Origin: an uncultured Candidatus Saccharibacteria bacterium | GTDB lineage: Bacteria > Patescibacteriota > WWE3 > UBA101185 > UBA10185 | Direction of reading: 5' to 3' | Length of the DNA stretch: 51,671 nucleotides | NCBI GenBank assembly: GCA_964385105.1 | Contig: CAYLMU010000002.1 | Span: 1 to 51,671 of the forward strand | Shown: positions 19,756-31,450 of the stretch, piece by piece | Layout of the letters: the number at the start of each line of letters is the position of its first letter | Position numbering within the stretch: the stretch's first letter is position 1 | Made by a program: the position numbers and the translations under genes | Notes under the pieces: model-generated | What the model saw: the letters and a program-made list of their open reading frames with translations, nothing else | Told to the model about the DNA's origin: nothing | Databases searched by the model: none

Positions 19756-19784
19756 GTAATTAGAGTATATAAGTTAGTGTCATG

Positions 19785-19913
19785 TGTCAATAAGATGTTG
19801 ACAAGTACTAGAACCCATAGTATAGTATATAACACTGATGTCACAGGAAGAATGTATATTACTCTGATGTTTGTCAACACATACTTGACAAGTATAAAAC
19901 TATAGGGTAAGAT
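19785..19913. promoter_or_regulatory. Twin TGTCAA-N7-TTGACA palindromes forming overlapping divergent sigma70 promoters
   Basis: Palindromes at 19785-19803 and 19872-19890, both followed by AGTA. + strand: TTGACA-17-TATAGT and TTGACA-17-TAAGAT. - strand: TTGACA-17-TACTCT, 6 nt before the TrmB ATG. Confidence 0.7.
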
Positions 19914-19919
19914 ATAAAC

Positions 19920-20900
19920 ACTTGAAAAATAAATAGCTAACAAAAAGCAGATCCTACCAGATCTTGATTCTACCTAAAAAGATTGCTGCTAAGCCAAAAA
20001 GGCCCTGTAAAGGCTTTACGGCGACACATTTAGAAAGCCAAGATTTGGTAAAGAAGTCTAAAAACCTTGATATAGCAACCTATACAAGGAATTGCATTTC
20101 TTTTCAGATCTTGGCTTTTTTCGTTTTTGCCTTAAATGTGCAATAAACATTGATATATTGCAAGCAAAAGCTTGTCTAGGAAACACGGGACACCTTTAAG
20201 AACCCAATTTGGAAGTTATCTAGAAACAAACTGTCCATAACCGGGAGAGAGACTTAAACGGACCTACCGACTTCTCGGACAAGCTTTTGCTTGAAATTCA
20301 AATACGAATTCAGGCAGCATTTGGCTTAAATACAAGCCAAACATTGAAATTAAAATAAAGCTGCTGTTTATACATTTGCCCCTACCGGCCAAACTTGGGT
20401 ATATCCCATGGTTTGATGTGTAGCAGAATAAAGCTTAAAACTTGCCAAATGCTTTAACAAAAGTAAGTGGCAACCGAGAATCTGTTCCATTGGCCGGCAA
20501 ATTTGCCTGCCTGAAAGGAAAGAGTGGCTCAAAACTGACAAAAGAGACAAACGATTGCTTAAAAACGTAATGAACATCAATTTGTTCTTACGAAAAGTAA
20601 AGTAGGTAATTGGCTAAATGGTCATTAGAAACACTTTAGCTATAGCCAAAAAAGCTTTACTTCCTACCTTTCGTGAATCCTGCCAAATAAATTCATGGAT
20701 ATTACGAAAAGGAGAGGATCAAAGTTATTGTTACTTAAGCAAATAGGCTTAGGTGCAGGCTTTGGTTTCCTGACTGCGCTTTTAGCGGTGGCGAAAATGT
20801 TGCCGGTGAAGGTGCAGATTAGGAAGGACTTCTTCCTAAACAGAAATCTCTCCGTAGGTATTAGCTTACGGATACAAATGCCGGCGCCTGAAACGCTGGA
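19920..20900 (+). ncRNA. Candidate large structured non-coding RNA or leader (about 1 kb)
   Basis: No credible ORF; nested inverted repeats, e.g. perfect 16 bp 20161-20176/20278-20293, TTCAGGCAG/CTGCCTGAA, CCGGCCAA/TTGGCCGG, AAAGCCAAGATTTG/CAGATCTTGGCTTT. Confidence 0.45.
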
Positions 20901-20911
20901 AGGAGATTAAA

Positions 20912-21241
20912 GTGAAGATTTATGAATTCACAACCAACTGGAATCAAACAGTTGGCGTCGACGGGGACTATCGGCATGTGATGCCGTTGGGCGACCTCCC
21001 CCATGTCTCAACGTACGAGGATGCATATGCATTCCTCGTTTACGACGGGGCGATAAAATGGGGAGAGGAAATTGTGGTGGTGTTTTCCCCAGGGGGGGAC
21101 ACCATGTCAATCTTTAACGAGGTCGAAATCGGCCTTGTTAAGCAGGTTGGGCCGTCAGAGCTGTCTTTTTTGGCTCTGAGCTGGTGGCTTGAAAATCAAG
21201 GGATGACCCCTGAGGACATGGAGGAATTTCTCAGAGGATAA
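20912..21241 (+). CDS. Hypothetical protein (109 aa)
   Basis: GGAG SD plus GTG start; protein-like composition. Confidence 0.7.
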   Translation: MKIYEFTTNWNQTVGVDGDYRHVMPLGDLPHVSTYEDAYAFLVYDGAIKWGEEIVVVFSPGGDTMSIFNEVEIGLVKQVGPSELSFLALSWWLENQGMTPEDMEEFLRG

Positions 21242-21784
21242 TCCCATTTTTCTACGACGCAAGCTAGTATTCTTTTTTTAGAGTATGACACTTGCGTCTC
21301 CACTTTAAACTTTAACTATAAATTGAAGTTTAAGCTGGAGAATAATAATTTAGTAGGATTAGGAAGAATTGAGGGACTACGCTAACCCTCAAAAAGCACT
21401 GTAATAGGGTAATTTAACCATTGCAGAATGCTTTTATCTCTTCCTACCAATTAAAAATACGTAGTTATCAAGTTGCTGTGTGTAGATGTTTGCAAAACGT
21501 GCGGGTTGTTAAACGTCTGCATCAGCTACCGGATAACTGAGGTAGTTTGGTTTGTTGTGTCTTTAATTAGGCAATGACAACTTAAATGATCTTGATTTAT
21601 CGGTAGCGGCTTGTTCTACCTGCCTATTTAATAGAACTGCCGACAAGTTCTTTGAAAACCGAATATCAAAGAATGTTAAATGATTGAGAAATTAGATTTT
21701 AGCAGTTAGGGAAGTGGATGGTGTTATAAAGCTTTTTATGGCTTATAGCATTGTACGCTTCCCGGGGCTGCATATCCTATAGAG

Positions 21785-21813
21785 TTGACATGGTGTAAGA
21801 CCTATAGTATAAT
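21785..21813 (+). promoter_or_regulatory. Consensus sigma70 promoter
   Basis: TTGACA-17 nt-TATAAT, exact consensus. Confidence 0.85.
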
Positions 21814-22098
21814 TGAGTCGTATTAAAGTGAGATAAGAAATTAGATCGCTTTGACAATATAAATATGTATCTTGCCCGATATAGCGACGTTTACCCAAAT
21901 TGTAAGTTAATAGACATTTTGAAGCTTTTGTAAGAAGGTAACAGATTAGTATTTGCAAGCAGTAAAGCTTTGTATATGCTTTTTTGATGCGTTCTTATAA
22001 AGAACCGGCCGAAAACACCTAGGTCGACAGCGAAACTGCGTGTGCAGTGGAGTAGGTGAAAACCCAAGATTTTCTATAGCCTAAAGGAGGCATAAGAA

Positions 22099-22797
22099 AT
22101 GAAAAACGTGAATCAGACGAGTGAAAGTGGAAAATACACGAAGTTGGTTTGGGCGATGAATGCTGCCGCCTTTGTCCCGGAAATCGTCTCCGAGAAGGTA
22201 ACATTTCCCCCCGTCATTCATGATGGGAATGGAAAAACGCACGTGTTGAAGGAACGAGAATTTTATTTTCTGGTTCCGGAAGCGTTGGACGGACGTTGGC
22301 GCAAGATCGCCCGCAAGCATGCGGACGCGCTCGCCCGGCCCGAATATGGCCCCCGCGGCCAGTTCGGGTTTTTGACGGTTTCGGCAGAAGCCGACCGTCA
22401 ATGGGAGTTATTCAAGGCCTTGTGCGCCAGTCAGGCGCGTGAGGCTGAGGAAATTCTCGTTGCGTTGAGCAACGAGGCTCTCATTGGAAAGGCGAAAATT
22501 GATTTCGAGAAAGCCCAGCGGCTTCTCAACTCGAAAAAAGCCTATCCCGCCCTTTGCGCTGCTCGCGCAGCTCAGAGGGAGTTTGAACGTCAACGCGACG
22601 AGCTGGTGGGGACCATAGGTTCCCAAACAGATTCGTTCGTTGGCGACCGCCGTTTTACACAAAAAGGTGGGGTTCGAGTTGAACTCCGTCAAAACGGGAA
22701 AAACGGCACTCGGAAAGGCGGTTGGGACAAAAAGCGCTCCAAGCGCTCCAGTCGCCAAAAAAACGAAAGTCATTTGGATCCGGCTAACTACCGGTAA
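22099..22797 (+). CDS. Hypothetical protein (232 aa) with Lys/Arg-rich C-terminal tail
   Basis: GGAGG SD; long ORF; tail GKNGTRKGGWDKKRSKRSSRQKNE. Confidence 0.8.
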   Translation: MKNVNQTSESGKYTKLVWAMNAAAFVPEIVSEKVTFPPVIHDGNGKTHVLKEREFYFLVPEALDGRWRKIARKHADALARPEYGPRGQFGFLTVSAEADRQWELFKALCASQAREAEEILVALSNEALIGKAKIDFEKAQRLLNSKKAYPALCAARAAQREFERQRDELVGTIGSQTDSFVGDRRFTQKGGVRVELRQNGKNGTRKGGWDKKRSKRSSRQKNESHLDPANYR

Positions 22798-22814
22798 AAT
22801 GGTTTTCGTTTGAA

Positions 22815-22957
22815 GGGGCCGACAGGCGTCGACTTCGCGGAAATAGTTTCGGTAGAGGGAAAATGCCCAAGCAAAAACCTCGAAAAAACTTGGTCAGCCT
22901 AAACCCTGACGACAAAAAAAGCCGTGAAGGACCTGGGTTCGATTCCCAGCGGCTCCA
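22815..22957 (+). ncRNA. Miniature tmRNA-like RNA: tRNA-like domain, helix 2a and pk1, no normal mRNA-like domain
   Basis: Acceptor stem GGGGCCG/CGGCTCC-A with G3:U wobble. ssrA-like 5' end GGGGCCGACAGGCGTCGAC. T-arm CTGGG-TTCGATT-CCCAG. CTTCGCGG/CCGTGAAG helix. Pseudoknot GAGG/CCTC plus CCAAG/CTTGG. Only 143 nt; CCA not encoded. Confidence 0.8.
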
Positions 22958-23015
22958 TTATGTAAGTGCTCGACCCGTAAGGGTAGAGCTATGGCCTTGT
23001 GCCAGGAGAAAAAAA

Positions 23016-23120
23016 ATGGAGATTATTATTTCCATTTTTCGTTCCCTAAAAGCCACTTGGCGCTGCATTTGCGGTACCGAAGTGGAAATGGGGAAATCCT
23101 GTTGGCGTTGCAACCAGTAG
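23016..23120 (+). CDS. 34-aa zinc-ribbon-like microprotein
   Basis: AGGAG SD; MEIIISIFRSLKATWRCICGTEVEMGKSCWRCNQ with CxC..CxxC. Confidence 0.55.
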   Translation: MEIIISIFRSLKATWRCICGTEVEMGKSCWRCNQ

Positions 23121-23627
23121 TTTAGGTTGCAAAAAAACGTCAACACCCACCAATGGGTTACAATGGCAGGTTTGATATTACCTGGGTGCTGGTTATCCAA
23201 AAGCACAAAAAATATAATGGTGACAGGGAACCTGGAAATAATTAACGGGTGAACTGTTGCGATAGTTTTTTTATAAAAACTACAAGGAGAAAAAATTAAT
23301 TCTGATGACATTCTGAATTAATTTCTCACTCCCTGCAGGGCTTAATACCTAAACAGCAAAAATGTTTTAGGTCGGGAGTAAACGTGTGAGGGATCACACC
23401 AAAAGTTAAGCCAAAGCAATCATTTGAGGGGACGTTTCGATTCGGAACTGCGTGAAATTGCAATTAAGCAAATTCATATCTGGTCGTTTCGTCCCTTTCT
23501 TCATTTATTAATTACAGAAATTAGCTTATATAAAAATGTGGGTTAGTTTCCTTACTTAATAAGTATGGCGGATTATGTACCTAGCCGTTAGTGCACGTGC
23601 ACACTGGTACAAAAGGAGAGAAAGATT

Positions 23628-23915
23628 TTGAATAGAAAATTTTTTGGAAGACAACAGAAGGGGTTGCGAAAAAACATGCGAACTCGCTCTGTTGTTAGAG
23701 CATGGAAGGCAGCAATTGCTGATGCTCGCGAAGATGTCCTCATTCCCCTGAATCGTACTCCTGAGAAGGATATTATTGAGGGTGAGTACATTGAGCGTCT
23801 TCGGAGTCATCCGCGCTATCCCAAATGCCAAAAGGAGCGGAAACTCCGTACCCGTCGTCGTGTCCGACGTTTTCGTTATTTTTACGAAGACATTCGGTAC
23901 GAATACTGGGCTTAA
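23628..23915 (+). CDS. Hypothetical Arg-rich protein (95 aa)
   Basis: AGGAG SD plus TTG start. Confidence 0.65.
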   Translation: MNRKFFGRQQKGLRKNMRTRSVVRAWKAAIADAREDVLIPLNRTPEKDIIEGEYIERLRSHPRYPKCQKERKLRTRRRVRRFRYFYEDIRYEYWA

Positions 23916-24138
23916 AATCTTAAAACTCTGAGGTACAAGGTTAGGCATTTTCATAAATTTATCATTTATGCCTAGCCTTGTACCATAACACTTTATTTTC
24001 TCAATCAAGTATTAATATTCTTTATTTGTAGCCAATTGTTTGGTGGTATTTGTTGTTTTTGTGGTAAAGACAGCAGGTATTACTAAGCAACTGTGCTTGG
24101 TAAGAAAAAATAGGACGAAAACCCAAGGAGAAAGGGAA

Positions 24139-24495
24139 ATGGATGAAGAGCAGTTGGAACAATTAAAAAAGCAGATCTTGAAAAAGTTTCATGATCAGTA
24201 TGAATATGAGAGAAAAAATTTGATGGCAAGATTTCTTGCCGTCCACAGTGTGGGCGGGAATACAATTGAGCCATTTTATCGCGCCGAAGAACGCACGGTA
24301 AAGCTTTTTGTTGAAGTTTTCGGAGAGAATTCTCCTGCGTACTATGTGCGCGGTGAAGATCTTTGCCCGGATTGGCGTGGTTCCTTTGAAGAAGGGAAGA
24401 CTTACGCTGAATGTTGGCGTGATGGCTCTTTGAAGGTTGTCGATGACTCTGAGGGTCAAACTTTTGGAATGCGGGGGCACTTGTATTATGAGTAA
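24139..24495 (+). CDS. Hypothetical protein
   Basis: AAGGAG upstream of ATG 24139 (MDEEQLEQLK); overlaps next start. Confidence 0.72.
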   Translation: MDEEQLEQLKKQILKKFHDQYEYERKNLMARFLAVHSVGGNTIEPFYRAEERTVKLFVEVFGENSPAYYVRGEDLCPDWRGSFEEGKTYAECWRDGSLKVVDDSEGQTFGMRGHLYYE

Positions 24496-24793
24496 TACAA
24501 AGGTCTCCGAAATGAGAGAAGGCGAAAAGGGTTACGTGGTGCCCTGGGCTTTTTCTCGTTTAAGGTTTGGGATTAGTGTAAATAAAAATTACACTGTAAG
24601 TCCCAAATTTGGTGGAACTGCAACCGTCGAAGTTGCAAAGATTCAAGGAGAACTTAGAGTTCTCAGTGGATTAAAACTTGACAGAGTAAGCAACTGGAGG
24701 AAGGAGTTTCTGCTTCCGGTTAAGCTTACCTGGTATGATCGTGTTAGGTTTCTGATTTTTTGCATGTTGCAAAAAATACAAAAAAAACGTTAA
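24488..24793 (+). CDS. Hypothetical protein
   Basis: MSNTKVSEMREGEKGYVVPWAF; start overlaps upstream stop. Confidence 0.68.
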   Translation: MSNTKVSEMREGEKGYVVPWAFSRLRFGISVNKNYTVSPKFGGTATVEVAKIQGELRVLSGLKLDRVSNWRKEFLLPVKLTWYDRVRFLIFCMLQKIQKKR

Positions 24794-25110
24794 GTTTAAA
24801 CAAAGGAGATACCACTAGCTCTCAGCTAGAACACTCCTTGACCTCGCCCAAATGGGTTGTAAGGTCTAAAGAATGAAACTCAACTTGGTATCAGATTCCG
24901 TTCGGGACGGATCTGTAGAGTTTCCGCAAGCCTCTTGTTTCCTGGGTTAAAGGACAGGTGAAGAGAGGATGAGAGCACAAGCGAACAACGACTGAACAAT
25001 TTTAGTTCAGGATCGGTTCCCGTCCACATAGTGTGGATTCCGTGCCAACTCTTGGCGCAGGTGAGGCTTTCCGGTAATGCCGACACCAAAATAAAAGAGT
25101 TACTAAGCAG

Positions 25111-25190
25111 TTTGTCTTACGCGCTCCAGCTATAACCAGTAAAAAATTAATTAAAACTTAAACTGTTATGGCTGGGGGTTTGCACTTAAA
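25111..25190. repeat. About 80-nt dispersed hairpin repeat, copy 1
   Basis: Near-identical to 27858-27935 (4 substitutions, 2 single-base indels); 16-bp stem CTCCAGCTATAA(C)CAGT/ACTGTTATGGCTGGGG. Confidence 0.9.
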
Positions 25191-25262
25191 TTTGGAACTT
25201 TGTTTATAAATTTTTGTAAACAGAATTCCTTTTTTAAGGATAGAGTGATCAACTCGAAAAAT

Positions 25263-25448
25263 ATGAAGCTTGTTATTGAAGTGCCTGGCGAAAAGCATAA
25301 GGGCAAAATAACTAGGGTAAAAGACTTACTGAAATGTCTTTCGGGCCTTTGGCAAACCTCACCGCAAGGGAGGCGACTGAGAAGGTTCGGCCGGTACGCC
25401 GTGTTAGTTGCGTATAAAGGGAAAAAAGAGAATGAGTACGTTGTATGA
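25263..25448 (+). CDS. Hypothetical small basic protein
   Basis: MKLVIEVPGEKHKGK; overlaps next gene. Confidence 0.5.
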   Translation: MKLVIEVPGEKHKGKITRVKDLLKCLSGLWQTSPQGRRLRRFGRYAVLVAYKGKKENEYVV

Positions 25449-26409
25449 TTTGAGTTCTGTATTAGCAAATCCTGATGATGTTGAGGATTTGCAATTTCAA
25501 CTCAATAGAGAGTTGGAGTATGTGATACTCGCAGTGCAAGCACTGCGGTATGAATACTCCGAAGCCGATCTTGGCTATGGAAAGCAGGGAAACCTGTCTT
25601 TCAAAGGTCGTGCTCCCGAGTTGAAGACAAAGGCAGCCAGAGTGGCAGACTGGCTGATTTGGCTTCGGGATGGAACTCCTGAAGAGGCAATGATGGGAAT
25701 TGCTGAGAGTATTTCTCAGCTAATTCGTGAACTCGACTACACTTTGTCGTATGACAAAGACAGTAGAGAGTTTTTCCGGATTCTCGGGGAACTGGAATAC
25801 AAAGGTCGCTACGCGGCCTTTTATCCTGACACTCGGGAGGTGCTCGTGGAGTTTGACACGCTTGAAGAAGGATTGGAGTTTGCAAAACAAGCTCCTATTT
25901 TTCTTACAAGTGTTGTCGAAGCTTTCCGTGCGCAGCGGGAAAACAACATGATTCGTTGGTATTTCGATGCTGACGGGTCGATGGTAGATGGTGGAAAGAT
26001 TTTTACCACCCAATACCAAAATTGGAAGACCGTTACGCTTTTGAAGGGTTTAGGGTTTGAAGTCGACCGTGAGAGGGTCGGGGACAATTTGGTCACGAAA
26101 AGTGGACCGGTTGTTCACATCTTTCACGGTTGGGAACCATCGAAAGATGGTTCACGTCTCACAAGCGGGGACGATCTATCTAACCCCGATTCCCCGCACT
26201 ATGGCCGCCGGTACCTTGATGCGTTTCTTTTTTGGACGCCCGAAGGTTACGCCGACGTTGTAGTGTGGAATTCCAGTCCCCATGGGGACGACCAACTGTA
26301 CGAAGTTGTTGGTCTGTCCTCTTACGAGGATTGGAAGGTGTTTGTGGAAGAGCGCCCAGAGGAATTTGGTTTGAGCCACTGGCTCGAATTCAATTCCATC
26401 TCGCTCTGA
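25432..26409 (+). CDS. Hypothetical protein (about 325 aa)
   Basis: Long ORF with purine-rich RBS before ATG 25432. Confidence 0.8.
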   Translation: MSTLYDLSSVLANPDDVEDLQFQLNRELEYVILAVQALRYEYSEADLGYGKQGNLSFKGRAPELKTKAARVADWLIWLRDGTPEEAMMGIAESISQLIRELDYTLSYDKDSREFFRILGELEYKGRYAAFYPDTREVLVEFDTLEEGLEFAKQAPIFLTSVVEAFRAQRENNMIRWYFDADGSMVDGGKIFTTQYQNWKTVTLLKGLGFEVDRERVGDNLVTKSGPVVHIFHGWEPSKDGSRLTSGDDLSNPDSPHYGRRYLDAFLFWTPEGYADVVVWNSSPHGDDQLYEVVGLSSYEDWKVFVEERPEEFGLSHWLEFNSISL

Positions 26410-26718
26410 AATTTTTTGAAGGCTACTGTAAAGTTATTTGGCAAATTAGCTAAATAACGGTAGCGTTGTGTTACCACAAAACAACTAAAACTTATGTGGA
26501 AAAGCAATTAAGTCTTAAATGGGAGATAGGGTTTGTTAATCTAACTGTAGAAATACTTTTAGCACGCAACCCTGTCTCCCAATCTCAAAATTTAGTTTAA
26601 TAGTCGTTCTCGTTTTGGCTTGCAATTTTACAGGCTAGTATGAGCATGATTATTGTAGTTAACCAATAAACTCTAGCTTCGGAGTGGTTAACGTTTGGTC
26701 ACCTTTAAAGGAGGAATA

Positions 26719-26964
26719 ATGACCAAAAATCCCTTATACACCCATGATTGCACCGAGTGTACATATCTTGGTGCATTTGAGGGTATCGACCTTTATCTCC
26801 ACAATGTTGGAGATGAAGAATCTTGGGAAATGGTTTGTCGCAGTAGCGACGAACCTGAAGATTATTATTGTCTTCCTTGGTTTGCTGATTTGGGTGAGGA
26901 ATCCAATTTCGACAAATATAGGGAGATTAAGAAAAGGGCTTTAGCCCAAATGGTCAAAACTTAA
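26719..26964 (+). CDS. Hypothetical protein with HDCxxC motif
   Basis: AGGAGG SD; MTKNPLYTHDCTECTYLG. Confidence 0.75.
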   Translation: MTKNPLYTHDCTECTYLGAFEGIDLYLHNVGDEESWEMVCRSSDEPEDYYCLPWFADLGEESNFDKYREIKKRALAQMVKT

Positions 26965-26974
26965 AGGAGGAAGA

Positions 26975-27469
26975 ATGACCAAATTAAAAAGAGTGTGGTT
27001 TTTAAGGAACCACACGAAAGTCCAATACACCGGCCTGGTAGCCGGAGTTAGGGACGGAAAGTTGTTGGTGAGGTACGCAAGACCTCTCAATACTTTTCAT
27101 GCTCCAAGCTTCATGGGGGAAGAAATTCGATTCCCTCAAACGGTTCTAGTAAGTAGGGAAGATATCTTGCCTTCAGGCAAGTTACGATTTCCTGAAAGCT
27201 GGGACCAAGATAGCGCATATGCGCTGAAACATGTTCCCTTCAAAAGTACCTTTGATGGTACTTTGTTTATCTATCATTATGTTGATGATAGTAGAGAAGG
27301 GATGGTTTATTTCTCTCTTCCGGTGGAAGAAGCTCAACTTATATTTGAGGGCTTTCCTCCACTGGAGAATTTTTTGTACCACAGCACAGTTACCGGAACG
27401 GTAACTGGTGAAATCGCATTTTACATCCTACGGGATGGTGTGCGGTTTAATGTGGTATATAAGGAATAA
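26975..27469 (+). CDS. Hypothetical protein (164 aa)
   Basis: AGGAGG SD; tandem with the previous gene. Confidence 0.78.
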   Translation: MTKLKRVWFLRNHTKVQYTGLVAGVRDGKLLVRYARPLNTFHAPSFMGEEIRFPQTVLVSREDILPSGKLRFPESWDQDSAYALKHVPFKSTFDGTLFIYHYVDDSREGMVYFSLPVEEAQLIFEGFPPLENFLYHSTVTGTVTGEIAFYILRDGVRFNVVYKE

Positions 27470-27473
27470 GTAA

Positions 27474-27805
27474 TTTGCGAAGCTCAGACAGAAGCTCCCT
27501 AGAATCGCCTTAAAAAGCGATACGTTGAAACGTCGAACAAAGCTCCAATCAGACACCCAGCCATGTAAAAAATGGCTTGATCTGATAAGGCTCAGCACCT
27601 AAACCAGGGTGTAAGGTTGAGCACGAGGAGAAAAGGCGTTTTCGCATGATGTTAAGGATGGTTTTCCGATGCATGCGTAAAAAAGCGTGTACCATTTGTT
27701 TTGGTACGAATAGGTGTCCGAAAGTTTAATATTTCGGAGCTCGGCCGGGGTCTTGGGTAAGATAGCCGGATGAGTAGAGAAATCTCTGCACGAGCGATTC
27801 GCAAA
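27474..27805 (+). ncRNA. Candidate multi-helix ncRNA (about 330 nt)
   Basis: Closing helix TTTGCGAA-GCTC/GAGC-(GA)-TTCGCAAA enclosing at least 8 hairpins; no ORF. Confidence 0.5.
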
Positions 27806-27857
27806 AAAAGCTGGGAATTTAACAAAGGTGGTTAAATTCCATAGTTGCAGTTAGTTG

Positions 27858-27935
27858 TTTGTCTCACGCGCTCCAGCTATAACCGGTAAAAATTAATTAA
27901 AATTTAAACTGTTATGGCTGGGGGTTGCATTTAAA
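27858..27935. repeat. About 80-nt dispersed hairpin repeat, copy 2
   Basis: Near-identical to 25111-25190. Confidence 0.9.
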
Positions 27936-28197
27936 AGAGGAATTTTGAGTACAAGATTTACGCTACTACTTGTAACCAAAATTTCTCTTTCAAATTACAT
28001 TTTGAATCGGATTAACATCCGGCCAATTCCTAGGTTTGCATATAGCTGCTTCCCGGTGCTTGATAAGTGCCGAATAAGGTTGAGCATATGGTTGTATGCA
28101 AAGTTGGATAGATGTTTTTGACTGAGGACGTGTTACCGCACGTAAAAAGGGTAAAAAGCGAAAAAAAAACAAAAGAAAACAAAAAGGGAAAAAAGAA

Positions 28198-29100
28198 ATG
28201 AATAAAGTACAGATGGACCGTCTGCAGGGGATTTTGATGTCGTTAGCAGACAGCACGGATTTGAACGTGCATCACAATGGTGTGGTTGCACGGATTTGGG
28301 GACGTCAGTCTCCTTACGTGTCTCATCAGGGGATTGATTTTGAGGTGGATGTTTATCACCCCGTGGGACATGATGTGGTTGCCTTTGATGGCAATTACAA
28401 GATGGTTGTTTCTGTTTGGGGGGACGCCAAGTGGCCCTTTGGGGATAAGCTCGATACCCCGAAGGACACATTTGAGGCTGAACTCGTTTCAGCCCAAATT
28501 CCTTTTCAACTCATCGAGTCGTTGCTCGATGACGTTGTGAATCGGGGAGCCCTTCCCTGGAGCATTGTTGCACAGCTGCGTGAACGTAAGCTTGTGTATG
28601 TGACGTTCCAGATTAAAAAGGTTGTTGGATGGACGTTTGACGGACGTCCGATTTTCAACAGCCTTGTAATCCGTTCTCAAAGAGAGCGGATTGTTAAGAG
28701 AATGAGGGAAACGCCAGATGTTATGGCGTACCCCGGTGATTTCGACGAGGCATTTGATGTCTCGGATAATGAACACCGGTGGATGAGTCCAAATTTCCCG
28801 CTTGACGTGTCGTTTGACGATACTGATGAGCAGGGAAGTTATGGCATGAGTTTCTCGAGTATCCTCGAAGCACGAGGATTCGAAGAGATACTCAAGGATG
28901 CCCGATTTGTCGAAATGATTCAGAAAATCCCTTACTTCGGTTGGGGAAGGGATTATTCTGAAATTGATGAAGATGAGGAGGAGTTTCAGTTCACAGAGGA
29001 GGATTATGAAACCTTGCTGGGCGGCGACACGCTTCGTAAAATTTACGAAGCCGACAAAGCCTGGAAGGTAAAATCCTCGTCCATTGAAGAAGAAGAGTAA
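28198..29100 (+). CDS. Hypothetical protein (300 aa) with acidic C-terminus
   Basis: Long ORF with purine-rich RBS. Confidence 0.8.
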   Translation: MNKVQMDRLQGILMSLADSTDLNVHHNGVVARIWGRQSPYVSHQGIDFEVDVYHPVGHDVVAFDGNYKMVVSVWGDAKWPFGDKLDTPKDTFEAELVSAQIPFQLIESLLDDVVNRGALPWSIVAQLRERKLVYVTFQIKKVVGWTFDGRPIFNSLVIRSQRERIVKRMRETPDVMAYPGDFDEAFDVSDNEHRWMSPNFPLDVSFDDTDEQGSYGMSFSSILEARGFEEILKDARFVEMIQKIPYFGWGRDYSEIDEDEEEFQFTEEDYETLLGGDTLRKIYEADKAWKVKSSSIEEEE

Positions 29101-29407
29101 ATTTGTTTAGCGGGATAGACCAGACTATTCCTTAGAAAGTAGCTAATTAAAGCGAAATCAGTTATCTGGTAATTTGTCTCGGAGCCCAAGTTAGTATTCT
29201 GATGTATAGAATGTGAAACTTGGGCCTCCTTTCAAGACTTTTAGAGTTTCTAAAGGTTTTGGACCGGAGGTAAATAGTATCGCTCGTTTTGCAACTTACA
29301 TAGTAAGTAATATAGTAAGTAATAGAGTGAGCGATATTATTAATAAACTGATCGATGAAGTCCAGCTTCGGAGGGAGATCGGTTTAACTTTCCTAGGAGG
29401 AAAGATC

Positions 29408-29767
29408 ATGAAAAACTTTCATGTTGCTCTGATTGATATTAATTCCCCGGAAGTGGGGGAGCAGTTTGGCGTCAGTGGCTGTTTGTCAGTAAACAAAGTT
29501 GGCACTGAAGTTTGGTGCTATCTGAGTGAAGTATTTTTGCCTGGAGACAACACTGATTTTACAGAGGGAAATGTGATTTTGGCGATTGGCGCCAAGGTGC
29601 CTGAATATATGCTTGAAGCGATTCGCTTTGAGCTCGAAAACGAGCACACCGGGTACCTTACGCCAGTACTCGATGTTTTTTTGGAAAAGCTGGTGTCTTT
29701 GCAGGCGCATCACGAATTCCAGCCTCCTGCAGAAGGAAGAGCGCTAGGGAAGCGTTTGTACTTCTAG
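29408..29767 (+). CDS. Hypothetical protein
   Basis: AGGAGG SD before ATG 29408; the upstream in-frame extension overlaps hairpins and is probably non-coding. Confidence 0.72.
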   Translation: MKNFHVALIDINSPEVGEQFGVSGCLSVNKVGTEVWCYLSEVFLPGDNTDFTEGNVILAIGAKVPEYMLEAIRFELENEHTGYLTPVLDVFLEKLVSLQAHHEFQPPAEGRALGKRLYF

Positions 29768-29919
29768 CGCAAAAAACAAAATTCCTTGATGGTAATGGAT
29801 ATGCCTAAAAACATAAAAAACCATCAAAAAAATTAGCAATTTCTCTTTGGACCGGGATAGAGAGAAAATCGAAAACATAAGAAAAGGTGATTATATGAGT
29901 GAAAAAAGTGTTGAAATAG

Positions 29920-30546
29920 TTGGCCGTGTTTGATGGGGAAACCATCTACATGGTTGATGAGCCGCGTGAGGCAGAAATTGCCGAGCTGGGTTATGTGGAT
30001 CGCGAACTAGTGGTACGCGACCACACGCGTCGGCAAGTGACGTTCGAAGTGGCCCCCGACCACCTGCTGAAGCAGGTTGAAAAGGAGCTACTTCAGGTCC
30101 GTCGGTGGCAAACTTTTGGTGAATGGCCGCAGAGCCATTCACTCCGGATGGATGACAAGACCGCTCGGGTCTATGTTGTCTATTCCGGTGGAGAGACCTC
30201 GTTCTCTCCCGAAGGTTACCACCGAGCGGGTTCTAGAGCGTACGAGGAAGCAAAATACTTCCTCCGGCAGGTTGTGAGAGGTGAAATTGAACCTGCTGTG
30301 TTGCTCCCCCAAGGCATATTGAGGAAGGTGGAACTTCCGCCCGTTCCTCAAAAGTGGGGGGAGCAGTACGCATATGTCAAGGCGTTACGCTTCTTGGGTC
30401 GAAAGACTCCTAAAGTGCAACGCCATGACGACCCCAACGCCAGGCTGTCCTGGACAGCCGTCCATTGGCTGGGGATTAGATTGGCTCTTGCCCTTGGTTG
30501 GGTTCCAAACCCGCCAAAAAGTGAAAACCACTTTTGGGCAGAGTGA
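29920..30546 (+). CDS. Hypothetical protein; true start possibly ATG 29895 with a frameshift near 29920
   Basis: 208-aa ORF; no SD at TTG 29920, but an SD-preceded ATG at 29895 is out of frame by one base. Confidence 0.65.
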   Translation: MAVFDGETIYMVDEPREAEIAELGYVDRELVVRDHTRRQVTFEVAPDHLLKQVEKELLQVRRWQTFGEWPQSHSLRMDDKTARVYVVYSGGETSFSPEGYHRAGSRAYEEAKYFLRQVVRGEIEPAVLLPQGILRKVELPPVPQKWGEQYAYVKALRFLGRKTPKVQRHDDPNARLSWTAVHWLGIRLALALGWVPNPPKSENHFWAE

Positions 30547-30791
30547 ATCAGTGCAGTCACAGCTGCAAAATAAACCTTCATGCACATCATGTAGGTAACT
30601 CAAATGAGTAGTTCTGTGAAAAACTCATAAGCAATTTGTTTTGTCGTGGCCAAAGTACAGTTACCTTAACCGGGATCTTGTGCTTTGGCCGCTCTTTAAA
30701 ATATTTCAGTGATAGTAATTTGCCGGTAACTAGTTATGGGTAAATTACTCTCATTGAATTGGAGAGTAAAAAATATAAAAGGAGAAAAAAA

Positions 30792-31100
30792 ATGAACGGC
30801 AACGGCAGGTATAATTTCGTCTGCATGGACTGCGGATATTTGGCAAAGCGACATAGTGGGGGTATTTGTCCACATTGTCGCATTCAGCTTACTAAAATAA
30901 CCCAAGAAGAAGCAAGATTTCTTGGTGACAAAAAAGTGAGAAGTGACAGACTGAGCGTTCTGAAGTGGATTCGTAGTAGATATTCCAAAGAAGTACTAGA
31001 ATCCACAGACAACTGGGGAAGGCCTTTTGTCCCATTATTATGGAGGCCTCGCAAGAGACGAAATTTAAGAGTTTTAATGGGTTGTGTAAAAAGATCTTAA
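30792..31100 (+). CDS. Zinc-ribbon-containing small basic protein
   Basis: AGGAG SD; CMDC..CPHC. Confidence 0.72.
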   Translation: MNGNGRYNFVCMDCGYLAKRHSGGICPHCRIQLTKITQEEARFLGDKKVRSDRLSVLKWIRSRYSKEVLESTDNWGRPFVPLLWRPRKRRNLRVLMGCVKRS

Positions 31101-31450
31101 AAACAGTACTCAATGTGAGTTATATAGTAATCGCACAAACATTGAGTTCAAAAAAGCGCTTTTGTGTTTTAACAGTGGGTAGGACTGTTAGTAACAAAAC
31201 ACGAGAGCGCTTTTTTGCATTATCCTATAAAATAATAATGGACATGCATTGTTCAAAATCACCTGATTCCAAACAAGTACATGTCCTAAAGTTCTAAACC
31301 TCAAATTCTAAAAAAGGGTGCTTATGTTATTTGCGAGACAAAATATTCTGCAACACAACAAGTGCCGATTTTCTCAAAGCAGCGCTAAGCCTACGTGCAT
31401 TATCGTCACTAATCTTGATTCCATTACCAAATATATTCTTCATTACTTTC

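What the first reader, a model, noticed from the sequence alone, without database searches (positions are those of the whole stretch)
22815..22957. 143-nt mini-tmRNA: full alanyl tRNA-like domain plus pk1, with almost no mRNA-like domain
Seen: both tmRNA ends are intact and paired (GGGGCCG/CGGCTCC-A with the G3:U alanine determinant, T-arm, 8-bp helix 2a). A pk1-like pseudoknot follows (GAGG/CCTC, CCAAG/CTTGG), then only a GTCAG/CTGAC hairpin. Established: bacterial tmRNAs are about 350 nt with a tag ORF, and integration remnants usually keep one end only. Inference: a functional minimal variant rather than a scar, e.g. an SmpB/AlaRS decoy or a tagless rescue RNA. Speculatively, TCA-GCC-TAA right after pk1 could give a two-residue AA tag, but its spacing from pk1 is much shorter than in E. 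coli.
Basis: partly seen in the sequence, partly recalled or inferred. Interest (0 to 1): 0.88.

Follow-up and report, generated by a model that had tools for sequence, protein, structure and literature searches.

The report
Miniature tmRNA without conserved tag
This is a real gene for a shrunken version of tmRNA, the RNA that rescues stalled ribosomes: it keeps the alanine-accepting tRNA-like end and one conserved stem-loop but has no conserved tag-coding part, and it belongs to a family of at least 69 such mini-tmRNAs, barely mentioned in the literature, found in ultra-small (CPR) bacteria, metagenomes and phages.

Summary
The 143-nt gene at 22815-22957 (+) is real. ARAGORN calls it at exactly these coordinates. 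Rfam RF00023 scores it 60 bits against a gathering score of 47. Contigs from three sequencing runs of one study carry it unchanged, so it is not an assembly deletion.

It is not a scar. Pattern scans recovered 69 distinct mini-tmRNAs of 97-156 nt, mostly from CPR/Patescibacteria genomes and metagenomes, with shorter ones in phage contigs. All have a 7-bp acceptor stem with G3:U, a T-arm and helix 2. A covariance model built without the window scores it 60.8 bits, and its helices covary strongly (86% of cells paired against 59% in shuffles).

The window shares the family's hairpin B, whose 19-nt loop (GAAAAUGCCCAAGCAAAAA) resembles a resume-codon context. No tag frame is conserved, neither ARAGORN's nor GCC-UAA.

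The likeliest function is alanyl transfer to stalled ribosomes with SmpB and without a degradation tag. An SmpB/tmRNA decoy is the main rival. CDS-less tmRNAs are already noted in the literature (PMC11915505).

The parts
21785..21813 (+). Perfect sigma-70-type promoter match (TTGACA-17-TATAAT), upstream of the 232-aa ORF and the mini-tmRNA. It is the likely promoter of the unit.
   Evidence: 12 of 12 consensus positions. The number of such sites in the region is not above the shuffle expectation, so this is suggestive only.
22099..22797 (+). 232-aa orphan ORF with a basic C-terminal tail. It ends 17 nt before the mini-tmRNA and is probably co-transcribed with it. Its function is unknown.
   Evidence: only itself found among 5.8 billion proteins. 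(no Pfam, PHROGs or PADLOC match). (AlphaFold2 pLDDT 37.8, uninformative).
22815..22957 (+). The mini-tmRNA gene, 143 nt. CCA is not encoded (the next bases are TTA).
22815..22821 (+). Acceptor stem, 5' strand GGGGCCG (G3 of the G3:U pair).
   Evidence: G3:U is present in 69 of 69 family members and was not imposed by the filter.
22833..22840 (+). Helix 2a, 5' strand CUUCGCGG. It pairs with 22922-22929 (GCCGUGAAG region).
   Evidence: Helix 2a covaries in the family (helices 2-3).
22845..22849 (+). Helix 2b, 5' strand AGUUU. It pairs with AAACU at 22886-22890.
   Evidence: The homologous helix covaries in relatives (CGACC/GGUUG, CAGCC/GGCUG, CGGUC/GACCG, CGGGC/GCUCG). In the window itself it is predicted only.
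22850..22885 (+). Conserved core: junction CGGUA, hairpin B (stem GAGG 22855-22858 / CCUC 22878-22881, with the 19-nt loop GAAAAUGCCCAAGCAAAAA at 22859-22877), then junction GAAA.
   Evidence: The loop consensus is A(-4)A(-3)A(-2)N | G C S C W W G M A A A in 42 members. The same CGGUA..GAAA junctions occur in L067, with AGUA and GUA variants in L157 and L086. The B stem covaries (helix 6).
22893..22910 (+). Hairpin C, GUCAG-CCUAAACC-CUGAC.
   Evidence: A hairpin lies at the same place in the other members that lack hairpin A, with loops CUAAUGA, CUGAUGA, UUAAGU, UUGAGU, UAAA, UCAA and GAAA.
22933..22949 (+). T-arm CUGGG-UUCGAUU-CCCAG.
   Evidence: It pairs in 99.8% of cells with compensatory changes in the family (helix 7).
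22950..22957 (+). Acceptor stem 3' strand CGGCUCC and discriminator A.
23017..23120 (+). 34-codon Cys-rich (CxC...CxxC) small ORF after the RNA. A terminator-like hairpin at 23099-23120 may mark the end of the unit.
   Evidence: I did not test whether it belongs to the unit.

Best explanation
**What it is.** The locus is a functional gene for a miniature tmRNA. It has a complete alanine-type tRNA-like domain, a two-part helix 2, and a conserved stem-loop (hairpin B). Hairpin B is the counterpart of stem 1 of pseudoknot 1. The RNA lacks pseudoknots 2-4 and has no conserved tag reading frame. It is one member of a widespread family of 97-156-nt mini-tmRNAs.

**Likely mechanism (inferred).**
1. 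The RNA is transcribed with the upstream orphan ORF from the consensus promoter at 21785.
2. RNase P cuts out its 5' end, the 3' end is trimmed, and CCA is added.
3. AlaRS charges it through the G3:U pair.
4. SmpB and EF-Tu deliver it to the empty A site of a stalled ribosome, where it accepts the nascent chain on its alanine.
5. The conserved loop of hairpin B (AAAAU|GCC...) matches the conserved A at -4 plus GCN resume-codon arrangement of normal tmRNAs. It may be presented to the decoding centre.
6. No stop codon is conserved, so the end of the reaction is probably not a defined proteolysis tag. Chain release must come after at most a few arbitrary codons, or through another factor.

The net effect would be ribosome rescue without a degradation tag.

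**Shown versus inferred.** Shown: the gene, its family, its structure and its covariation. Inferred: charging, SmpB use, and what happens after transpeptidation.
For: - **Detection.** ARAGORN and Rfam RF00023 both detect it above threshold.
- **Family size.** Pattern scans found 69 distinct minis with a perfect 7-bp acceptor stem, G3:U in 69 of 69, UCGAC and a T-arm.
- **Rfam support for relatives.** Thirteen relatives from named genomes pass the Rfam gathering score.
- **Independent model.** Covariance model R1, built from 35 relatives without the window, scores the window 60.8 bits, E=8e-13.
- **Covariation.** On 80 sequences, 86.2% of cells pair against 58.7% in shuffles (0 of 500 shuffles reach this). 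The covariation score is 0.417 against 0.103. Slid controls give 40-55%. Compensatory changes occur in helix 2a, helix 2b, hairpins A and B and the T-arm.
- **Common fold.** 47 of 57 minis of 125 nt or more fold independently into the same shape.
- **Shared motif.** The window shares the conserved loop motif and the CGGUA/GAAA junctions with distant members.
- **Stable chromosomal gene in one lineage.** One sub-family lies next to alaS in every locus with enough flank. The tmRNA database lists what appears, by name, to be one of its genomes (my L036) as possibly lacking a tag frame (PMC11915505).
- **Cellular, not phage.** The 126-160-nt size class is absent from IMG/VR phage contigs but present in genomes and metagenomes.
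- **Real DNA.** Three runs of one study carry the gene unchanged.
- **Resume-codon context.** A at -4 is the key frame-setting nucleotide upstream of the resume codon (PMC2481249). It is A in 39 of 42 minis.
Against: - No transcript evidence: no RNA run holds this or two related minis.
- I could not test whether smpB, a standard ssrA or ArfB exist in this genome. No smpB lies within 8 kb of any mini.
- The window's mini has no close relative (at most 68% identity). Its own helix 2b and hairpin C therefore rest on prediction and analogy.
- It sits in a higher-GC island of orphan genes, which fits an acquired accessory gene.
- 78% of Patescibacteria genomes have an identified tmRNA, nearly all of the standard form (PMC11915505 Suppl. 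Table 2). A second, normal ssrA in this genome is therefore quite possible.
- Without a conserved stop codon the release step is unexplained.
- The covariation alignment was fitted to the model, and the motif frequencies come from motif-selected sequences.
Confidence: 0.55

Rival explanations
1. Accessory decoy or regulator. The mini is cargo of the acquired orphan-gene island. It acts by titrating SmpB (and perhaps AlaRS or EF-Tu) away from a normal tmRNA encoded elsewhere in the genome, and so damps tagging and proteolysis. The TLD-only form of mycobacteriophage DS6A is thought to work this way.
For: - The locus lies inside an 11.7-kb stretch of 42-46% GC in a 33-37% GC genome. That stretch consists of same-strand orphan ORFs.
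- It is driven by a consensus promoter together with an orphan ORF.
- Shorter minis (97-120 nt) and TLD-only forms (63-80 nt) are common in phage contigs and tRNA arrays.
- A TLD-only molecule has been shown to inhibit tmRNA strongly, perhaps by titrating SmpB (PMC4131195; PMC11915505).
- Most Patescibacteria have an identified tmRNA, nearly all of the standard form.
Against: - A decoy needs only the tRNA-like domain. This RNA keeps a further 80 nt, with a loop motif and junctions conserved across distant lineages.
- This size class is absent from IMG/VR.
- In one CPR lineage the mini is a stable chromosomal gene next to alaS, and it is the tmRNA listed for that species.
- The island shows no integrase, phage gene or att repeat.
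Confidence: 0.27
2. An ordinary, if small, tmRNA with a real lineage-specific tag. The ribosome would resume at GCC in the hairpin-B loop and translate AQAKTSKKLGQPKP to the UGA at 22907-22909 (ARAGORN's reading). Alternatively it would resume at the GCC before the UAA in hairpin C, giving a one-codon tag.
For: - ARAGORN reports the 14-codon frame.
- The upstream context AAAAU|GCC has the conserved A at -4.
- One sub-family keeps GCC-NNN-NNN-NNN-ACG-UGA in 5 of 6 members.
- Hairpin-C loops often hold UAA or UGA, with UAA-to-UGA swaps in two lineages.
- Two-residue Ala-Ala tags exist in Fermentibacterota (PMC11915505).
Against: - From the conserved GCN, an in-frame stop occurs in only about 40% of motif-bearing members, no more often than in the other two frames.
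- The closest motif match, L016, reads AQAKT... but has no stop at all.
- The tag would end in PKP, unlike the hydrophobic tag end described for tmRNAs (PMC4131195).
- Changes in the supposed codons follow helix covariation.
- The GCC-UAA reading has GGUCA upstream, with no A at -4. The codon before the stop varies (GGC, AGC, UCU, UAU, GUU). Some relatives lack a stop in that loop.
Confidence: 0.12
3. A dead remnant: a normal ssrA that suffered an internal deletion, an integration by-product, or an assembly collapse.
For: - Such deletion alleles do exist. L104 is an E. coli-type ssrA with an internal deletion.
- The gene lies in an island, and tmRNA genes are common integration sites (PMC9580842).
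Against: - Three runs of one study carry it unchanged.
- Both halves of the tRNA-like domain are intact and paired.
- It shares non-TLD motifs with a covarying family.
- L104 lacks those motifs.
- There is no att-like repeat.
Confidence: 0.04

Closest known systems
Standard one-piece tmRNA (SsrA; Rfam RF00023) acting with SmpB
   Same: Acceptor stem with G3:U and discriminator A. D-loop-like GGNNUCGAC with no anticodon arm. T-arm GGUUCGAUUCC. Helix 2. A stem at the position of pseudoknot-1 stem 1. An A-rich stretch followed by GCN that resembles the resume-codon context.
   Different: 143 nt instead of about 350. Pseudoknots 2-4 are absent. Stem 2 of pseudoknot 1 is not supported. No conserved tag ORF or stop codon. 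The GCN motif sits in a hairpin loop, not 12 nt after a pseudoknot.
'Standard NoCDS' tmRNAs of the tmRNA database (Nasuia, and the CPR species 9FT-COMBO-53-11 sp001772805; Nawrocki, Petrov & Williams 2025, PMC11915505)
   Same: Bacterial one-piece tmRNAs that may lack a tag reading frame. The CPR entry appears, by name, to be the genome of my locus L036. That locus holds a 130-nt mini with the same layout as the window: helix 2a, helix 2b enclosing hairpin B, then hairpin C.
   Different: Only 3 such Patescibacteria genomes are counted there, and no structure or motif is described. The window's sequence shares 64% identity with L036 and comes from a different lineage and genomic context (no alaS neighbour).
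TLD-only tmRNA of mycobacteriophage DS6A, and ~65-bp plastid forms
   Same: tmRNA derivatives without a tag frame. The tRNA-like domain is retained.
   Different: Those are little more than the tRNA-like domain, and a similar molecule inhibits tmRNA. The window keeps a further 80 nt of conserved structure and is in a bacterial chromosome-like contig.
Mitochondrial tmRNA of jakobids and oomycetes (Rfam RF02544)
   Same: No tag reading frame. It is conserved and co-occurs with SmpB, so a rescue role without a tag has been proposed.
   Different: It is organellar and usually circularly permuted or two-piece. It has no hairpin-B motif.
tmRNAs with 2-residue Ala-Ala tags (Fermentibacterota; PMC11915505)
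   Different: Those keep a recognisable resume codon, a second Ala codon and a stop. Nothing comparable is conserved here.

Membership tests
tmRNA (RF00023) | Score at or above the curated Rfam gathering threshold, matched end to end | tested here: met
   60.0 bits against 47, model positions 1-374, E=4.8e-21. ARAGORN also calls it.
tmRNA (RF00023) | Alanine-type acceptor stem (G3:U70, discriminator A) closed by the 5' and 3' ends | tested here: met
   GGGGCCG/CGGCUCC-A.
tmRNA (RF00023) | T-arm with a tRNA-like T-loop, and a D-loop-like GGNNUCGAC without an anticodon arm | tested here: met
   CUGGG-UUCGAUU-CCCAG and GGCGUCGAC.
tmRNA (RF00023) | Helix 2 joining the tRNA-like domain to the rest of the RNA | tested here: met
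   An 8-bp helix 2a. It covaries in relatives.
tmRNA (RF00023) | Pseudoknot 1 upstream of the resume codon | tested here: not met
   Stem 1 is present. Stem 2 is at chance level: p=0.10 for the window, and a family mean run of 4.15 against 4.17 in shuffles. Relatives form a covarying helix 2b there instead.
tmRNA (RF00023) | Tag reading frame: a resume codon, a conserved peptide and a stop codon | tested here: not met
   A resume-like context (A at -4, then GCC) is present. No frame or stop is conserved across the family.
tmRNA (RF00023) | Pseudoknots 2-4 | tested here: not met
   Absent. Only 80 nt lie between the two strands of helix 2a.
tmRNA (RF00023) | SmpB partner encoded in the genome | not testable with these tools
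No SmpB match in the window or in any 8-kb locus.
tmRNA (RF00023) | Charged with alanine and active on stalled ribosomes | not testable with these tools
   Needs biochemistry.
Mini-tmRNA family defined here (model R1) | Significant score against a model built without the window | tested here: met
   60.8 bits, E=7.8e-13. With L016 (60.9 bits) it is the best-scoring sequence outside the seed.
Mini-tmRNA family defined here (model R1) | Hairpin B with the ~19-nt loop AAANGCSCWWGMAAA | tested here: met
   GAGG-GAAAAUGCCCAAGCAAAAA-CCUC. Its motif score of 21.5 ties for second highest of 69; only L148 (21.8) is higher.
Mini-tmRNA family defined here (model R1) | Hairpin A with loop GUGGUA (the commoner sub-type) | tested here: not met
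   The window has single-stranded CGGUA instead. It belongs with the sub-type that has hairpin C (L067, L157, the L086 group, and the alaS-linked sub-family).
TLD-only tmRNA inhibitors (phage DS6A type) | [quoted passage not shown] | tested here: not met
   The window has 80 nt of conserved internal structure.
Integration remnant of ssrA (attL/attR) | One gene end duplicated as a direct repeat flanking an island, with an integrase nearby | tested here: not met
   The 3' end has no second copy with up to 3 mismatches. There are no att-like repeats. No integrase was found by Pfam or PHROGs.

The most novel reading that the evidence does not exclude
In this and several other CPR lineages the mini is the only tmRNA. 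Together with SmpB it would carry out a stripped-down form of trans-translation. The conserved hairpin-B loop would act as a minimal resume module, and the ribosome would be freed without any proteolysis tag. That would make it a natural demonstration that rescue, not tagging, is the essential function. It would also show a release route that needs no tmRNA-encoded stop codon.
Probability: 0.25. Interest if true: 0.8.

Novelty: new variant of a known kind. Interest (0 to 1): 0.6.

Why it matters
tmRNA-SmpB is close to universal in bacteria. Its tag frame is treated as a defining part. A large family that keeps the tRNA-like domain and one conserved loop but has no conserved tag frame would give a natural minimal system for three questions:
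- what trans-translation really needs;
- how the resume position is set;
- how a ribosome is released when the rescuer provides no stop codon.

There is a practical side too. Curation pipelines reject many tmRNA candidates as truncated (PMC11915505), and minis of this kind could be among them. ARAGORN called none of the 13 minis from named genomes, though it did call the window's, and each of the 13 passes the Rfam gathering score.

The published record so far amounts to one sentence and three genomes. The structure model and the list of about 70 sequences assembled here make the question directly testable.

Tried and rejected
2. **Walking along the contig** with the look-up of encoding contigs: only short Logan contigs (9 and 18 kb) are on record, so this was abandoned.
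3. **smpB next to minis:** none within 8 kb of the 13 minis from named genomes, nor in the window.
4. **pk1 stem 2 as a family feature:** rejected.
5. **Conserved tag frame from the loop GCN:** rejected.
6. **Antisense or direct-repeat partner of the hairpin-B loop in the flanks.** Earlier notes of this scan describe such partners for 70-nt tRNA-like RNAs. Here there is no enrichment: 1 of 42 and 2 of 42 at p<=0.05. The window's 23-nt inverted match at 23930-23952 has p=0.17.
7. **att-site duplicate of the gene's 3' end:** none.
8. **Function of the upstream 232-aa ORF.** It has no homologue and no Pfam, PHROGs or PADLOC match. The AlphaFold2 model has pLDDT 37.8, too poor for a fold search.
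9. **TrmB-regulator synteny** (window, L040, L009): judged compatible with chance, because such regulators are common paralogues in CPR genomes.
10. **Transcript evidence:** no RNA run was listed for the window or for two other minis.
11. **Other RNA families in the island:** none.
12. **Window-specific pattern in phage contigs:** 0 hits.
13. **MAFFT plus RNAalifold alone** could not align the variable helices. The covariance model was needed.
14. **ARAGORN's 319-nt call in L059** is spurious.

Full report
**1. The observation**

The sequence at 22815-22957 (+) reads GGGGCCGACAGGCGUCGAC...GGACCUGGGUUCGAUUCCCAGCGGCUCCA.
- ARAGORN calls a tmRNA at exactly these coordinates.
- Rfam RF00023 matches it end to end with a 249-position internal deletion, at 60.0 bits against a gathering score of 47, E=4.8e-21.
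- The single-sequence fold gives -47.1 kcal/mol, z=-2.3. It shows the 7-bp acceptor stem with G3:U, the T-arm and an 8-bp helix 2a. It also shows a 5-bp helix AGUUU/AAACU, the hairpin GAGG/CCUC with a 19-nt loop, and the hairpin GUCAG/CUGAC.
- Logan contigs of three activated-sludge runs (three samples, one study) cover the gene with no difference.

**2. Setting**

The window comes from a low-GC bacterium (33-37% GC). It carries an F1 ATPase, topoisomerase I, fmt, S2, RRF, Pth and DnaX.

The gene lies inside a stretch of about 11.7 kb (19756-31450) with 42-46% GC and same-strand orphan ORFs. These have no Pfam, PHROGs or PADLOC match.

A perfect TTGACA-17-TATAAT promoter sits at 21785-21813. 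A 232-aa ORF follows and ends 17 nt before the RNA. That ORF has no homologue among 5.8 billion proteins, and its predicted structure is too poor to use (pLDDT 37.8). There is no integrase, no att-like repeat of the gene's 3' end, and no other Rfam family in the island.

I could not ask whether a normal ssrA or smpB exists elsewhere. Walking along the contig failed, because only short Logan contigs are on record.

**3. It is one of many**

I scanned public collections with a pattern that demands the tmRNA 5' motif and a T-loop only 55-115 nt apart. After filtering for a perfect acceptor stem, this gave 69 distinct mini-tmRNAs of 97-156 nt. It also gave seven 63-80-nt versions that are little more than the tRNA-like domain.
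- All 69 have G3:U, which the filter did not impose.
- Thirteen come from named genomes: eleven Patescibacteria (Saccharibacteria, Doudnabacteria, Berkelbacteria, WWE3) plus Anaerolineae, and one Victivallaceae contig. Each passes the Rfam gathering score.
- ARAGORN called none of those thirteen.
- In IMG/VR phage contigs all 12 hits in the 97-120-nt range are genuine minis. The 126-160-nt class, to which the window belongs, gave no true hit there.
- The larger class therefore looks cellular and the smaller forms phage-borne.

**4. Structure and covariation**

Folded one by one, 47 of 57 minis of 125 nt or more adopt the same shape. There are two layouts.
- *Commoner layout.* Helix 2a, an internal loop, then helix 2b. 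Helix 2b closes a three-way junction holding hairpin A (loop GUGGUA) and hairpin B.
- *Second layout.* Hairpin A is replaced by a single-stranded (C)GGUA, and a hairpin C follows helix 2b. The window has this layout, as do L067, L157, the L086 group and an alaS-linked sub-family.

I built covariance model R1 from 35 sequences of the commoner layout, without the window. It scores the window 60.8 bits, E=8e-13.

On the 80 aligned matches:
- 86.2% of cells form standard pairs, against 58.7% in shuffles (0 of 500 shuffles reach this);
- the covariation score is 0.417 against 0.103;
- slid controls give 40-55%;
- every helix has compensatory changes.

Two caveats apply. The alignment was fitted to the model. 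The window itself has no close relative (at most 68% identity), so its own helix 2b and hairpin C rest on prediction and analogy.

**5. The pk1 claim**

Stem 2 (CCAAG/CUUGG) is not.
- In relatives the strand after hairpin B pairs with the strand before it, forming helix 2b. That pairing covaries: CGACC/GGUUG, CAGCC/GGCUG, CGGUC/GACCG, CGGGC/GCUCG. The loop stays unchanged.
- Across 40 members, complementarity between the loop and the downstream strand equals that of shuffles (4.15 against 4.17). The window's own 5-bp run has p=0.10.

**6. Is there a tag?**

The most conserved internal element is the hairpin-B loop. In 42 motif-bearing members it reads A(-4) 39/42, A(-3) 42/42, A(-2) 35/42, then G C S C W W G M A A A. 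These counts are partly circular, because the sequences were selected by that motif. The window has GAAAAU|GCCCAAGCAAAAA.

This resembles the frame-setting context of normal tmRNAs, where A86 at -4 from the resume codon is almost invariant (PMC2481249).

Reading from that GCN, however, an in-frame stop exists in only about 40% of members. That is no more than in the other two frames. L016 shares AQAKT with the window but has no stop at all. ARAGORN's AQAKTSKKLGQPKP* is therefore not conserved.

- Relatives often have UAA or UGA there, with CUAAUGA/CUGAUGA and UUAAGU/UUGAGU swaps.
- The preceding codon varies, some loops have no stop, and the upstream context lacks A at -4.
- Rfam aligns this CUAA with the conserved GACUAAGC junction of helix 2 in normal tmRNAs. 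That offers a non-coding explanation.

One sub-family keeps GCC-N9-ACG-UGA in 5 of 6 members. Short lineage-specific frames therefore cannot be excluded.

**7. What is already known**

The term 'mini-tmRNA' occurs in no paper of the library. The 2025 tmRNA database paper (PMC11915505) reports:
- CDS-less tmRNAs in mitochondria and plastids;
- the TLD-only form of phage DS6A, which inhibits tmRNA;
- 25 tmRNAs with Ala-Ala tags.

Its Supplementary Table 2 counts, for 6765 Patescibacteria genomes, 5252 standard tmRNAs and only 3 'Standard NoCDS'. The named CPR species appears, by name, to be the genome of my locus L036. Its sub-family sits 0.1-2 kb from alaS in every locus with enough flank.

The kind is therefore known, but only just. 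The size of the family, its fold and its loop motif are not described there.

**8. Mechanism and rivals**

- *Best reading (0.55).* A working mini-tmRNA is charged with alanine, delivered by SmpB and EF-Tu, and accepts the stalled chain. With no conserved stop, the result is rescue without a proteolysis tag, and the release step is unknown.
- *Main rival (0.27).* An accessory decoy carried by the island titrates SmpB away from a normal tmRNA, as proposed for TLD-only forms (PMC4131195). The island context and the high frequency of identified tmRNAs in the phylum favour this. The conserved extra 80 nt and the absence of this size class from phage contigs count against it.
- *A real lineage-specific tag (0.12)* and *a dead remnant (0.04)* are less likely.

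No transcript data could be found.

**9. Verdict**

The object is real and selected. The pk1 and two-residue-tag details do not. It is a new variant of the barely documented CDS-less tmRNAs. The decisive missing fact is whether this genome also has a normal ssrA and smpB.

Noticed in passing
L104:6088-6219: An E. coli-type ssrA with an internal deletion running from just after pseudoknot 1 to the GCAUGUAG of helix 2 (132 nt), on a 100-kb metagenome contig. It is either a natural deletion allele or an engineered strain. It lacks the mini-family loop motif.
   Followed up: no
L095:2167-2228; L117:1409-1485; L122:159-236; L110:437-515; L129:647-722; L001:3084-3152: tmRNA-like genes of 63-80 nt that are little more than the tRNA-like domain. 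Each is directly followed by a tRNA gene, and L001 lies in a phage tRNA array. They resemble the published TLD-only form of mycobacteriophage DS6A.
   Followed up: partly
L154:7476-7605 and L154:5298-5427: Two paralogous mini-tmRNAs 2 kb apart on one contig. Both keep GCC-UUU-N6-ACG-UGA in the hairpin-B loop.
   Followed up: partly
L009:2997-4503 and L030:6300-7979: Ro60 (TROVE plus vWA) genes lie 0.6 kb and 2.8 kb from the minis of a Doudnabacteria and a Saccharibacteria genome. Bacterial Ro60 works with tRNA-like Y RNAs, so this could be a link or a coincidence.
   Followed up: no
L043, L036, L032, L063, L089, L111, L121, L124 (alaS 0.1-2 kb from the mini): In one CPR lineage (AlaRS proteins 70-77% identical) the mini-tmRNA is always next to alaS, the enzyme expected to charge it.
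   Followed up: partly
L016:2000-5950: An Anaerolineales contig carries its 146-nt mini at the end of an array of about 32 tRNA genes. The identical mini recurs in three metagenome contigs.
   Followed up: no
window:25110-25180 and window:27857-27926: A 70-nt intergenic repeat (87-97% identical) inside the orphan-gene island. The island also repeats the start context TTAAAGGAGGAAnAATGACCAAA at 26705 and 26961.
   Followed up: no
window:23932-23984: A 17-bp near-perfect hairpin 1 kb downstream. Its 5' arm is complementary to 9 nt of the mini's conserved loop (GGCAUUUUC). The match is not significant against shuffles (p=0.17), and no such partner recurs at other minis.
   Followed up: yes
window:48427-48930: A peptidyl-tRNA hydrolase (Pth) gene lies in the same window, with RRF and EF-Ts genes nearby. 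This is relevant only as a possible route for releasing chains after a tag-less transfer.
   Followed up: no
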